From a plasmid: a stretch of 64,000 bases of DNA. A program made the position numbers. Each line of letters opens with the position of its first letter. Positions within the stretch are counted from its first letter, which is position 1. The DNA lies in assembly GCF_056746865.1 (NCBI RefSeq), contig NZ_JBWKMP010000005.1, one strand, 5' to 3'. Shown in pieces: positions 15,001-18,000 of this stretch.

Positions 15001-18000
15001 TGTGTTTCTGCGGCTGATTCTCAGGCAGAAATACCCGCTATGGCGCGTGAAGCGATATTGGCAATCGTGGAAGATATGGTATTAAGCGGTGCTTATTCTG
15101 TTGATGATATTCATGATGAAGGGTGTTTGACTTATTCGGATCACTCCAATTATAAGCACTGTGATAGCTGGTTTTTGGTTGATGTCGATTTAACATTAGA
15201 CATGCCGTAGTCCGGCTATCGGGTCATGAGGACGCTGAAGAATATCGCAGGCATATATTTACAGTGTAAAGGTGTTTCTGTCTTTACATTGTAAGGCTTA
15301 TTGAATACTACACTGTAGTGCAATGTATGTGTTTTTATGACCTATCCCCGCGTTGTGCGGGGATTTTTTTTGATAGCTAACCGCTCGCCGCAGTCTAGCG
15401 ACCGAGCATAGCGAGCGAGTGACGAGGAAGCGGAAGATCCACCGTTGCCAGGAGAAAAGCAGGTACGCACTATGCATTCTGCCCTAGTGATGCTTTCACA
15501 AACCACGCGGCCTGAACTATTACGCCATGAATCCAGCGCAAATCGGCATCACGATTTTCTTTTTTCATTTTTTCGCCACTTAAAGCCTTGCTTACGTGAC
15601 TTTTTACCAGATTTTCGTGTAATTCTTTTGCTTCTTCAATTGTGAAACCACCAGGCAAATTTGGCGCTTCTGCTTCCAGTGATGCCAGAGCAATTTCATA
15701 AGCCCGGCGCTCAATATTGTCTCGCACGTCCAGGCTGCCGATTCGCTCCCTGATTTCTTTAATTAGTTTCTTGTCGTCGTCGGTAAATGTTGTCATCTCA
15801 CTCTCCTTTGGCGTCAATGTTTACAGCCTGGCAAGCCTCTTTGAGCACCCAGTCAATAGCGTCTTTCCATGCCCCTGTTTCGACGGGAGGATTCGTGTGC
15901 TTTACCTGATCGTAGAAGCGTACTGCGTTTACCAGTCCTCTTGTTGGTGCTGCTATCGCAGGTGGTAAGTTGTAGAGTTCCTGAATTTCATAGTTCGGCC
16001 TGTCGTTGCAGTCTTCTTTTGTCGGCACGTATTTCCAGTCACCAACCCACGTTTTACCCTGAGAGTCCGTAACGTCTTTTTTCACGTAACGATACCTCCA
16101 TGCAACAACCCCAGCTTCCAGCGATGCCAGTGCGATTTCATAAGCCCGGCGTTCAATATTGTCTCGCACGTCCAAGCTGCCGATTCGCTCTCTGATTTCT
16201 TTAATCAGTCCCTTGTCGTCGTCGGTAAAAGTTGTCATTAGTGACTCCTTTTCATATCTATGGTTTTCTTGAATCAATTTCGTCTAGTTTGAGTTTTATA
16301 TTTTGCTGGTCTGATTTTGGTAATTTTCTCATGCTCTCTTCAGTTATTTTTTTCATATCAAGAAAAGCTCTTGCATAGAAGCGCAGGCTTGCCTCTTTTT
16401 CATGTTGTGCAACATACCAGGTTGCGCCAGAAAATGCCGCAGACAGGCATAATGTGCACAAGGCACAAATTGCAATGGCTGTTCTTGTACTGAAGGGTTT
16501 TACAGCCTTAGATAATGACTTCAACTTTTCTTCATATAATTTGTTGTTTTTTTCCTGGTTGCGTTTAATTCCAGATATGAGTTCAATAATATCATCTGTT
16601 AATTTTTCTTTTACCTCAACACTTGTTTCTTTTAGATCGTTTTTTCCCTCTTCTACTTTTTCTTTTATTTCATTATCCAGATCGCCGCACGTCTCAACAA
16701 TATTCTTGAATCTTTGAATATAGTCATTTTCTACAGATGAAACGACCTGTCTGAAGCCCTCAGACAGGGCAGTGAAGTTAGCTTGTAACTCATTGCTGAA
16801 TTTTTCCTGTATCTTTTGGTTCAGAAAAATTAATGAAATAACTGGATCATCTTTTGATATTTTATGCCCTGTCTCCTTGAATACATCAACAATAAAATTA
16901 TCAATATCTTCACTGGAAACAGCCTTTTCAGGCTGTTTTAATTCTGGCTGATTAACTGTACTCATATTATTCACCGTGTTCATCGTCATAGATGCTATCT
17001 AATTGTTTGTAAATGTCATTGAAGACTCGTTTTAATCGTGATTTAGCCATTAATCCAAAATGGTCGGACTCAAGAGCTTCTTTCAGTGTTAGTGATTTTT
17101 CTGTTAGCTCTTTGATGTCAGAGGCAAAGGCATCACTTTTTCTGTCCTGAATAACCACAACGCCAGCGATTACATCCTTGTTTTTTTCAATGAATTTAGT
17201 TTCTATTAATGGGATATTTTCAAGTGCTGGAATACCCTGAAATTCATTTATCCAGACAATAAGTTTTACCTTACTTCCTTTAACCAGTTCTTTCAGTTCT
17301 TCAAATCCCTGCAAGGTATCCGCAAGAGCTTGTCCACCAACGATAACAGTATGGATATAAACGTCTTGTTCTACATCTTCAAACATGTCCATAACACAGT
17401 TATCATTGAAATACTGAATTAACGGTAAAAATGTAGATGCGCCATTGTCAATAACAAAAGTATTCTGACTATTGGTCAGCATTGATTCGAACATTGGATC
17501 GAATTTGGATTGTATTACTTTGCTGTTTTCAGTGATTTGTATCAAATCTGCATTTAATCTTTTTACTTTAACCGTAGTTGTATTAACCGGGTCTGTGTCA
17601 CCGACTACGATATTATCCATGTGATTTTCATCAATAAAGTATTGTGCCAGTATTGCGGTCGCGAATGATTTTCCAACACCACCTTTACCCTGAAGGATGA
17701 AATTGATTGAGTTTTTCATTTATAATGCTCCTTTACTTAAAGATATTTATTTATGAATTTTTCATTCGTAGCACTTGGATCGTGCTCTATTTCTTTTTTG
17801 TTCTCACTAATGTTTGAAAAAAAACCTTTTACCCCCCCTCTCGGTTCATCGCCTTTAGCTTCATTCTGATCAATTACATCTATGGTTTTTGCCTGTTCTT
17901 TTGGTTCAGTGCATTTTTGTCTTTTTTTAGCCCTCTCTGTCATATTTATATAAGTCTTTTGGGCTAGTTCTGTCTTGGTGTTGTTGTTTATGTAATCAGC

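What the first reader, a model, noticed from the sequence alone, without database searches (positions are those of the whole stretch)
15470..16238. Tandem paralogous genes with near-identical N-terminal 46 aa and unrelated C-termini
Seen in sequence: both products start MTTFTDDDK(K/G)LIKEIRERIGSLDVRDNIERRAYEIALASLEA, encoded by a ~140-bp direct DNA repeat (15660-15796 vs 16100-16238), then diverge completely. Inference: a polymorphic family with a shared adaptor or oligomerisation head and swappable effector tails, possibly Ea22-like (low confidence).
Basis: partly seen in the sequence, partly recalled or inferred. Interest (0 to 1): 0.5.

Follow-up and report, generated by a model that had tools for sequence, protein, structure and literature searches.

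The report
Phage-type mosaic gene pair on plasmid
Two small neighbouring genes on an mcr-1 IncI2 resistance plasmid share a conserved 42-residue helical head but have unrelated tails; they belong to a very common, heavily shuffled family of early genes of lambda-like phages whose function is still unknown.

Summary
Gene B (15798-16238, minus strand, 146 aa) and gene A (15470-15796, minus strand, 108 aa) share 41 of their first 42 residues (not 46). The shared part is a 138-nt direct repeat that also covers the ribosome-binding site. The tails are unrelated.

The window is an mcr-1 IncI2 conjugative plasmid. Both genes sit at the far end of the traK/traL/traM-like operon next to oriT.

The head differs at 9 synonymous sites and one amino-acid codon (dN/dS 0.055), so the peptide is under selection.

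The head occurs, 80-100% identical and almost always at residue 1, on about 115 representative proteins with at least 25 different following modules. These include DUF551 and a dATP/dGTP pyrophosphohydrolase.

Both tails also occur behind other heads, including true Ead/Ea22 heads. Modules join at conserved linkers (IALASLEAEP, LYAAPPxPVVP, KGE-stop).

Relatives are in 1963 of 5426 complete E. coli genomes, mostly prophage early-left regions.

In IncI2 plasmids the locus is a variable array of one to six cassettes.

Verdict: a member of the known mosaic Ea22/EaA/DUF551 phage gene pool, captured by a plasmid. Head oligomerisation and an early-entry role are inferred, not shown.

The parts
15798..16238 (-). 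Gene B, 146 aa. Head residues 1-42, then a beta-rich module (about 43-92), a PP-rich linker, and a two-helix module ending KGE-stop.
   Evidence: ORF. Full-length match to phrog_660, E 1.4e-44. 3225 homologues. AF2 pLDDT 76.7: H6-21, H27-41, strands 44-89, H100-115, H122-143.
15470..15796 (-). Gene A, 108 aa. The same head (residues 1-42), then an all-helical tail (LPGGFTIEEAKELHENLV...AAWFVKASLGQNA).
   Evidence: ORF. 892 homologues. Its full length, at 95% identity, equals the N-terminal part of 178-186 aa prophage DUF551 proteins. AF2 pLDDT 77.1.
16114..16251 (-). Head repeat, copy in gene B: Shine-Dalgarno AAAGGAG (16245-16251), ATG at 16238, codons 1-42.
   Evidence: the repeat finder family D1; alignments.
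15672..15809 (-). Head repeat, copy in gene A: Shine-Dalgarno AAAGGAG (15803-15809), ATG at 15796, codons 1-42.
   Evidence: the repeat finder family D1. 9 synonymous changes against one changed amino-acid codon; dN/dS 0.055.
15794..15809 (-). Cassette junction AAA GGA GAG TGA G ATG. The last three codons of gene B (K-G-E) plus its stop contain the ribosome-binding site of gene A, whose ATG follows 1 nt after the stop. This implies translational coupling.
   Evidence: Read directly from the sequence. The same junction lies behind the HK022 Ea22-like gene and in the IncI2 array variants.
16258..16989 (-). Upstream gene of the operon: 243-aa coiled-coil/membrane protein, weakly TraM-like.
   Evidence: NCBIfam PRK13895 TraM, E 0.0011, below cut-off. 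Conserved left flank of the variable locus in all IncI2 variants.
16967..17719 (-). TraL (ParA-like ATPase) of the leader-type operon.
   Evidence: RefSeq annotation of the identical plasmid.
17737..18138 (-). First gene of the operon (133 aa), in the position of traK. No family match.
   Evidence: ORF; no NCBIfam match.
18222..18250 (-). Sigma-70-like promoter (TTGACA-17-CATAAT, 11/12) upstream of the operon. No minus-strand terminator-like site follows before the end of gene A, apart from one weak 5-bp stem inside traL.
   Evidence: Consensus scan only.
18376..18428 (-). Candidate oriT core. Inverted repeat CGATTGTA/TACAATCG followed on the minus strand by GTATCGTGCCTGTG. This resembles the R64-type layout of repeat, then 8 bp, then nick.
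   Evidence: Inverted repeat and sequence. The comparison with R64/RP4 is from memory. PMC11878559 states that the oriT of pHNSHP45 is R64-like with nikAB.
15344..15364 (+). Plus-strand intrinsic-terminator-like hairpin of the convergent hicB-like gene. Together with the 15365-15469 spacer it forms the conserved right flank of the variable locus.
   Evidence: Terminator scan; flank conservation.

Best explanation
Genes B and A are two cassettes from the mosaic pool of early-left ('ea') accessory genes of lambdoid phages, the pool that includes Ead/Ea22, EaA and DUF551 proteins. They have been captured at the distal end of the traK/traL/traM-like operon beside oriT of an IncI2 plasmid.

Each protein is a string of small, independently folding modules joined by conserved linkers.

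Shown:
- The head is a module under strong purifying selection.
- The head is combined with many different tails.
- Each tail is combined with other heads.
- The IncI2 locus varies from one to six cassettes between constant flanks.
- The break-points of this variation fall in the head and in the KGE-stop/SD/ATG junction.
- The single-gene IncI2 variant carries a head that is a chimera of the two copies seen here.

Inferred:
- The head repeats and linkers serve as substrates for homologous recombination with prophage arrays, which adds, removes and swaps cassettes.
- The 42-aa amphipathic two-helix hairpin is too small to fold alone and cannot co-evolve with over a hundred tails. It therefore probably pairs with a second head into a four-helix bundle, as the Ead/Ea22 coiled-coil head oligomerises. 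This would allow A-A, B-B and possibly A-B assemblies.
- The tails are probably the variable host- or partner-binding parts.
- Both proteins are made from one transcript, with A translationally coupled to B.
- They probably act early after the element enters a new cell. In phages the family lies in the first-transcribed pL operon. Here it lies on the side of oriT that should enter the recipient first.

The molecular target is unknown.
For: Identity of the element: IncI2, MOBP, 100% identical to pMCR-H9 and many mcr-1 plasmids. MCR-1 is encoded at 24449-26074.

Head under selection: 9 synonymous changes against one changed amino-acid codon, dS 0.38, dN/dS 0.055, binomial p 8e-5.

Head census: an exhaustive phmmer search of 1.84 billion representatives gave 125 hits. 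About 115 have 80-100% identical heads at residue 1, on proteins of 48-332 aa. At least 25 different first-tail modules follow the head. Among 67 head-bearing proteins, 18 carry DUF551, 3 a dATP/dGTP pyrophosphohydrolase and 1 Ead_Ea22.

Tails behind other heads: seen, including PF13935 heads (P0106, P0206).

Phage origin: matches to phrog_660, 5117, 60 and 3323. Hits in 242-291 phage records annotated Ea22, EaA or DUF551. Relatives in 1963 of 5426 complete E. coli genomes, with 2010 of 2469 places on chromosomes. Early-left context in mEp460, HK022 and PA2.

Variable IncI2 array: spans of 1668, 1782, 2101, 2821, 2895, 2978 and 3661 bp between the same flanks. One variant carries the same altHead-BC plus 95-aa gene block as phage mEp460.

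Chimeric head in pSCZE4.

Literature: Ea22 proteins are described as mosaic, with a common oligomerising N-terminal and coiled-coil part and unrelated C-terminal domains (PMC10834534).

Operon and coupling.
Against: - Oligomerisation was not modelled, because the tools predict monomers only.
- AF2 confidence is moderate (pLDDT about 77) and the alignments are shallow in diversity.
- Gene B is absent from roughly as many IncI2 backbones as carry it, and gene A is disrupted in some Salmonella plasmids (P0213). Neither gene is therefore needed for transfer.
- The genes are transcribed away from oriT. They cannot use the single-stranded T-strand as template, which is the arrangement reported for leading-region anti-defence genes of F and IncI1-type plasmids (PMC11541004).
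- The nick site and transfer polarity of IncI2 are inferred from analogy, not shown.
- PADLOC, Pfam and NCBIfam give no hits.
Confidence: 0.6

Rival explanations
1. Simple tandem duplication. One gene was duplicated in place and the 3' parts then diverged beyond recognition.
For: There are two adjacent copies of a 138-nt repeat in the same orientation.
Against: - The tails show no similarity (blastp E 3.4; hhalign probability 0.1%) and have different predicted folds.
- Each tail has close relatives (75-95% identity) attached to other heads in prophages, so the tails pre-exist as separate modules.
- The heads differ at dS 0.38 while staying 98% identical in protein. That is incompatible with tails drifting to randomness over the same time.
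- IncI2 variants carry other cassettes between two head copies.
Confidence: 0.03
2. The head is conserved for a nucleic-acid role only, such as a recombination site, a translation-initiation region or an RNA element. The peptide it encodes has no function of its own.
For: - The repeat includes the ribosome-binding site and start codon.
- Variation in the IncI2 array begins and ends at the head.
- Conserved boundary sequences are a known feature of lambdoid mosaicism (from memory: Clark et al. 2001, HK620).
Against: - Nine of the ten codons that differ are synonymous (dN/dS 0.055). The same pattern holds across IncI2 alleles. DNA identity is allowed to decay while the peptide is kept.
- The peptide is 80-100% identical across about 115 cluster representatives.
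- It is predicted as a regular amphipathic helical hairpin.
- A recombination role can coexist with a protein role.
Confidence: 0.08
3. Hitch-hiking phage debris. The cassettes were acquired by recombination with prophages, give the plasmid no benefit, and are simply tolerated at the end of an operon.
For: - Presence and absence of gene B, and arrays of one to six cassettes, occur on otherwise near-identical backbones.
- There are frameshifted and partial cassettes in some arrays and a deletion allele of gene A (P0213).
- No known functional domain is present.
Against: - Both ORFs are intact and identical in over 140 plasmids from several genera.
- The head is under purifying selection within the plasmid lineage.
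- An N-head/AC gene is kept as the last cassette in nearly every variant.
- The translational coupling signals are preserved.
Confidence: 0.17
4. Polymorphic toxin or effector system in the strict sense. The conserved N-terminal part would be a trafficking or adaptor domain that delivers alternative C-terminal toxins, each with a neighbouring immunity gene.
For: There is a conserved N-terminus with hypervariable C-termini, and the genes are tandemly arranged.
Against: - There is no signal peptide, secretion-system marker or toxin domain.
- The proteins are 100-330 aa and cytoplasmic in character.
- The heads themselves are interchangeable.
- The family sits in phage early operons without cognate small immunity partners.
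- Some tails are ordinary phage domains such as DUF551 or a MazG-like pyrophosphohydrolase.
Confidence: 0.04

Closest known systems
Ead/Ea22-like proteins of lambdoid phages (Pfam PF13935, IPR025153; lambda Ea22 and the Stx-phage Ea22 variants V1-V3)
   Same: - The logic of a conserved N-terminal part with unrelated, swappable C-terminal domains, described as mosaic in PMC10834534.
- The same gene neighbourhood in phages.
- Both tails found here also occur behind true PF13935 heads (P0106, P0206).
- Gene B ends in the family's K/R-G-E tripeptide (PMC7093339).
- A weak fold match to an Ead/Ea22-like protein.
   Different: - The head here is a 42-aa helical hairpin with no match to the Ead_Ea22 signature.
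- There is no long coiled coil.
- The proteins are about half the size.
- There is no similarity to the solved lambda Ea22 C-terminal domain.
- The genes sit on a conjugative plasmid.
EaA / DUF551 (PF04448) proteins of P22-like and Stx prophages
   Same: Gene A is 95% identical over its full length to the first 108 residues of 178-186 aa DUF551 proteins that carry the same head (P0129-P0137). 18 of 67 head-bearing proteins carry DUF551.
   Different: Gene A stops (…SLGQNA) where those proteins continue into the linker SGNSPVTPDGW and the DUF551 domain. The short ending also occurs in prophages (P0141, P0149, P0157), so it is an alternative ending and not necessarily a truncation.
RP4 (IncP) leader operon traK-traL-traM, and leading-region establishment or anti-defence genes of F and IncI1-type plasmids
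   Same: - Position directly beside oriT, on the side opposite the relaxase.
- Co-directional with TraL and a TraM-like gene, and transcribed away from oriT as in RP4.
- Variable accessory content, as in leading regions (PMC11541004).
   Different: - RP4 has no such cassettes.
- F and IncI1-type leading genes are oriented so that the T-strand is the template. These genes are not.
- No homology to any known anti-restriction, anti-CRISPR or SOS-inhibitor protein was found.

Membership tests
Ead/Ea22-like family (PF13935) | Match to the Ead_Ea22 N-terminal/coiled-coil signature | tested here: not met
   Pfam scans of both proteins show no PF13935 hit even at E<=10. Only 1 of 67 head-bearing relatives matches, and that one is a head-plus-Ea22-head fusion.
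Ead/Ea22-like family (PF13935) | Mosaic C-terminal domains shared among family members | tested here: met
   The BC tail lies behind a PF13935 head in P0106, and the AC tail in P0206.
Ead/Ea22-like family (PF13935) | C-terminal K/R-G-E tripeptide (PMC7093339) | tested here: inconclusive
   Gene B ends …AKGE. Gene A ends …GQNA. The tripeptide here encodes the next gene's ribosome-binding site, so it marks a gene junction rather than a protein feature.
Ead/Ea22-like family (PF13935) | Location in the exo-xis / early-left region of a lambdoid (pro)phage | tested here: not met
   This copy is on an IncI2 conjugative plasmid. Its relatives are in that phage region.
Ead/Ea22-like family (PF13935) | Oligomeric (tetrameric) assembly and pro-lysogenic activity | not testable with these tools
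   This needs biochemistry and phage genetics.
DUF551 (PF04448) | Presence of the DUF551 domain | tested here: not met
   Neither protein has a hit. The closest longer relatives of gene A do.
PHROG phrog_660 (phage protein family of unknown function) | Full-length profile match | tested here: met
   Gene B residues 1-145 match profile positions 3-143 of 193, E 1.4e-44. Gene A matches only through the head and part of the tail, E 9.6e-11.
Polymorphic toxin systems | N-terminal secretion or trafficking domain, C-terminal toxin domain, adjacent immunity gene | tested here: not met
   No such domains were found in Pfam, NCBIfam or PADLOC. Neighbouring genes are further cassettes of the same kind.
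Plasmid leading-region anti-defence islands (PMC11541004) | Position within the first genes to enter the recipient | tested here: inconclusive
   The genes lie on the side of oriT opposite the relaxase. A candidate R64-like repeat-and-nick layout on the minus strand would make this side leading. The nick is not experimentally known to me.
Plasmid leading-region anti-defence islands (PMC11541004) | Genes oriented so that the transferred strand is the template (pointing towards oriT) | tested here: not met
   Both genes point away from oriT, in one operon with the traK/L/M-like genes.
Plasmid leading-region anti-defence islands (PMC11541004) | Homology to a known anti-restriction, anti-CRISPR or SOS-inhibitor protein | tested here: not met
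   No such family was found in Pfam, NCBIfam or PHROGs. No dedicated anti-defence library was available.

The most novel reading that the evidence does not exclude
The 42-residue head is a portable dimerisation module that lets co-expressed paralogues assemble into mixed oligomers. Here that would be A with B, translationally coupled in one operon. In prophages it could involve up to three head-bearing genes per array. Phages and IncI2 plasmids would then field a combinatorial set of early proteins whose fast-shuffling tails bind and neutralise host factors, such as defence or stress-response proteins, in the first minutes after DNA entry. The same head sequence would double as the recombination site that renews the repertoire.
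Probability: 0.12. Interest if true: 0.6.

Novelty: new member of a known kind. Interest (0 to 1): 0.3.

Why it matters
IncI2 plasmids are the main epidemic carriers of mcr-1. Their oriT-proximal region turns out to hold a recombination-prone array drawn from the prophage early-gene pool. This shows direct gene flow between lambdoid prophages and a conjugative plasmid.

The family is present in about a third of complete E. coli genomes, yet it has no Pfam or NCBIfam model for its head and no known function. A defined, very conserved 42-aa module is a tractable entry point: it can be tested for dimerisation, used as bait for partners, and deleted.

A small side result concerns the '+GE' C-terminal motif of Ea22 proteins, whose significance the literature calls unknown. 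Here and in HK022 it is simply the Shine-Dalgarno sequence (AAGGAG) of the next cistron, read in frame.

None of this changes current understanding of plasmid or phage biology unless a function is found.

Tried and rejected
- **Family libraries.** Pfam, NCBIfam and PADLOC scans of both proteins found nothing significant.
- **Solved structures by sequence.** The search found nothing. In particular there is no match to the lambda Ea22 C-terminal domain.
- **Simple duplication.** Rejected; see the rival explanations.
- **RP4-type nick consensus.** I searched for YATCCTGY in the oriT region. None is there: the 14 matches in the window lie elsewhere. I then fell back on an R64-like inverted repeat plus GCCTG|T on the minus strand as a candidate only.
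- **Other conjugative plasmid types.** I considered that partial matches in other plasmids meant other conjugative types carry the cassettes in their leading regions. The ones inspected are phage-plasmids (IncY/P1-like). The one exception is pJNE132847_1, where a gene A homologue lies beside parB/psiB/psiA among IS fragments.
- **Literature.** Searches for DUF551, for the ea genes and for the IncI2 leading region found no functional study of these two genes.
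Full report
**What is in the sequence**

Two ORFs lie head to tail on the minus strand.
- Gene B spans 15798-16238 and encodes 146 aa.
- Gene A spans 15470-15796 and encodes 108 aa.

Their products are identical at 41 of the first 42 residues: MTTFTDDDK(G/K)LIKEIRERIGSLDVRDNIERRAYEIALASLEA. They show no similarity afterwards.

The underlying direct repeat is 138 nt long and 88% identical: 15672-15809 and 16114-16251. It begins at the Shine-Dalgarno AAAGGAG and ends at codon 42/43.

The tails are unrelated at the available sensitivity. blastp gives E 3.4, and hhalign of a 64-sequence family against an 82-sequence family gives probability 0.1%. The predicted folds also differ.

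**Where it is**

The window is an IncI2, MOBP, MPF_T conjugative plasmid. It is 100% identical over this region to pMCR-H9 and more than 140 other plasmids from Escherichia, Salmonella and Shigella. It encodes MCR-1 at 24449-26074.

The two genes are the last in a co-directional row:
- a 133-aa gene at 17737-18138, in the traK position;
- TraL at 16967-17719;
- a weakly TraM-like 243-aa gene at 16258-16989;
- then gene B and gene A.

The row diverges from mobC and the relaxase across the oriT region. A good sigma-70-like site lies upstream at 18250-18222. No convincing minus-strand terminator follows before the end of gene A.

Gene B ends AAA GGA GAG TGA, and the ATG of gene A follows 1 nt later. 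The last codons of B are therefore the ribosome-binding site of A.

**Selection on the head**

The two head copies differ at eleven nucleotide positions in ten codons. Nine of those codons change synonymously. One changes the amino acid (K10G). This gives dS 0.38 and dN/dS 0.055, and the excess of synonymous changes has binomial p 8e-5.

The copies are therefore not a recent duplication, and it is the peptide that is conserved. Other IncI2 alleles of the head show the same pattern, plus a two-codon length variant (MTTLTDKELIKEI…).

**What family it belongs to**

Pfam, NCBIfam and PADLOC give nothing. PHROGs does:
- gene B matches phrog_660 over its full length (E 1.4e-44);
- the head alone matches phrog_5117, 660, 60 and 3323.

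Homology searches return 3225 proteins for B and 892 for A. Nearly all are from E. coli and its relatives. They are named hypothetical, ead/Ea22-like, Eaa or DUF551, or are misnamed as a methyltransferase.

tblastn and blastn find the modules in 242-291 phage records. These are mainly Stx-converting and other lambdoid phages, under features annotated Ea22, EaA or DUF551.

At DNA level some part of the pair is present in 1963 of 5426 complete E. coli genomes. Of 2469 places, 2010 are chromosomal.

In phages mEp460, HK022 and PA2 the relatives sit in the early-left region, between the recombination genes and int/xis. In HK022 a gene with this head follows the Ea22-like gene directly. Its start is coupled to that gene's …IKGE stop in the same way as here.

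**Modularity**

An exhaustive search of 1.84 billion cluster representatives with the 42-aa head found 125 hits.
- About 115 have 80-100% identical heads.
- The head is almost always at residue 1.
- The proteins are 48-332 aa long.

Reading them shows beads on a string joined by recurring linkers:
- …IALASLEAEP(V/I)A…
- …LY(A/T)APPxPVVP…
- …GWNACRAAML…
- …SPVTPDGWISCSERMP… (the start of DUF551)
- …PLPEPPQEV(K/NRG) or …KGE at the end.

At least 25 different modules follow the head directly. Of 67 head-bearing proteins, 18 contain DUF551, 3 a dATP/dGTP pyrophosphohydrolase, 1 an Ead_Ea22 domain, and the rest no Pfam domain.

Conversely, the B tail and the A tail each occur behind other heads. 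At least six other head classes end in the same IALASLEA linker. Both tails also occur behind true PF13935 heads (P0106, P0206). Heads as well as tails are interchangeable.

**The IncI2 locus is a variable cassette array**

Between the constant TraM-like gene and the constant hicB-side flank, IncI2 plasmids carry spans of seven different lengths:

| Span (bp) | Content |
|---|---|
| 1668 | head-A only |
| 1782 | one head-B-like gene |
| 2101 | this window's arrangement, found in about 166 PLSDB records |
| 2821, 2895, 2978, 3661 | up to six cassettes |

The longer arrays include an Ead/Ea22-headed gene, a PD-(D/E)XK-like 'XF1762 family' gene, and small genes also found in phage arrays.

The last cassette is almost always head-A, and the first usually carries the head. 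One variant contains the same block as phage mEp460: an alternative head on the B tail, then a 95-aa gene.

The single-gene plasmid pSCZE4 has the upstream sequence and first diagnostic site of this window's gene B, followed by gene A-type sites. A crossover therefore took place inside the head.

This supports, without proving, that the repeated head and the KGE-stop/SD/ATG junction are where cassettes are gained and lost.

The other plasmids with partial matches that I inspected are phage-plasmids. One exception is a gene A homologue beside parB/psiB/psiA among IS fragments.

**Structure**

AlphaFold2 models have moderate confidence: pLDDT 76.7 and 77.1.
- In both proteins the head forms helices 6-21 and 27-41.
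- B continues with a beta meander (44-89) and two helices.
- A continues with helices 53-67 and 79-107.

**How it most likely works**

Shown:
- a mosaic phage-type gene pair;
- a head under protein-level selection;
- free recombination of heads and tails;
- a variable array with break-points at the head;
- a one-operon layout with a coupling junction.

Inferred:
- A 42-residue amphipathic hairpin attached to more than a hundred unrelated tails is most simply an autonomous pairing module forming a four-helix bundle. This parallels the oligomerising N-terminal and coiled-coil part of Ea22, which is tetrameric and carries unrelated C-terminal domains (PMC10834534).
- The tails would be the partner-binding parts.
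- Expression would be early after entry. The phage relatives are in the first-transcribed operon. Here the genes lie on the side of oriT opposite the relaxase, which normally enters first (PMC11541004).

A candidate R64-like layout exists on the minus strand: inverted repeat CGATTGTA/TACAATCG, then GTATCGTGCCTGTG. It would make the minus strand the transferred strand, with this operon leading. PMC11878559 calls the pHNSHP45 oriT R64-like. The comparison with R64 and RP4 rests on my memory of those sequences.

Against a classical leading-region anti-defence role:
- the genes point away from oriT, so they cannot be transcribed from the incoming single strand;
- they are dispensable across backbones.

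**Comparison with known families, and novelty**

The closest known kind is the Ead/Ea22-EaA-DUF551 mosaic of lambdoid early-left genes. Membership of PF13935 and of PF04448 was tested and is not met for either protein. Membership of phrog_660 is met for gene B.

The general phenomenon is already described for Ea22: a conserved front, swappable C-terminal domains, mosaic genes and unknown function.

What is not described, as far as the searches show:
- this particular head as a discrete module;
- the array in the IncI2 oriT-proximal operon.

I therefore rate it a new member of a known kind, of modest interest.

**Side result**

The K/R-G-E ending of Ea22 proteins is called of unknown significance in PMC7093339. 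It is explained here, in HK022 and in the IncI2 arrays as the in-frame reading of the next cistron's AAGGAG ribosome-binding site.

Noticed in passing
window 5010-5817, 10477-10516, 13350-13364, 14712-14852, 15257-15296: The palindromic motif CTTTACANTGTAAAG occurs 11 times (0.38 expected by chance). It often comes in pairs about 25 nt apart in intergenic DNA of the accessory region, including both sides of the hicB-like gene next to gene A and just upstream of two TnpB elements. It may be a repeated operator or an insertion target. It remains unexplained.
   Followed up: partly
window 2301-3509 (-), 6345-7553 (+), 11059-12267 (+): There are three copies of a 402-aa RNA-guided endonuclease TnpB gene (IS200/IS605 family; NF040570, E 3e-115) within about 1255-nt repeats that are 94% alike. 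The two plus-strand copies are preceded by a 100% identical repeat of at least 300 nt (5845-6144 and 10559-10858).
   Followed up: partly
window 15798-16121 (RefSeq CDS in NZ_CP029184.1, WP_223666488.1): RefSeq/PGAP annotates gene B as a 107-aa protein starting at an internal CTG (Leu40). This removes the shared head, so the paralogy with gene A is invisible in the annotation. Some records annotate only two of the three genes.
   Followed up: yes
window 15794-15809; L006 (HK022) about 3620-3640: The '+GE' C-terminal tripeptide of Ea22 proteins, reported as unexplained in PMC7093339, coincides with the Shine-Dalgarno AAGGAG of the next gene (AAA GGA GAG TGA N ATG). This holds here, behind the HK022 Ea22-like gene, and in several IncI2 cassettes.
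   Followed up: partly
window 14911-15210 (+) versus L002 756-1400: The hicB-like ORF beside gene A lacks the hicA gene, and it lacks the 3' part found at this position in other IncI2 plasmids. The flanks are replaced by palindrome-containing sequence. A complete hicAB pair lies at 13547-14139. PMC11878559 mentions partial hicAB deletions in IncI2 plasmids.
   Followed up: partly
L003, L008-L010, L012 (IncI2 array variants); L014: The longer IncI2 arrays carry a 171-177 aa protein (MALTHRELCQIAYKFLKRNGFKV…EAKCSRADL…) annotated 'XF1762 family'. It has an E-x-K motif that looks like a PD-(D/E)XK nuclease. The same gene occurs in a P1-like phage-plasmid array.
   Followed up: no
P0213 / P0144 / P0147 (Salmonella and E. 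coli IncI2 plasmids); window 15342-15506: Some IncI2 plasmids carry a deletion inside gene A. It fuses the head plus 10 residues to the out-of-frame sequence downstream (…GGFTIEVCESITRAE…). Gene A can therefore be lost without losing the plasmid.
   Followed up: no
window 24449-26074 (+) and 8790-9305 (+): MCR-1 phosphoethanolamine transferase (NF000465, 1303 bits) is encoded at 24449-26074. A 171-aa J-domain protein is encoded in the oriT-distal accessory region at 8790-9305.
   Followed up: no
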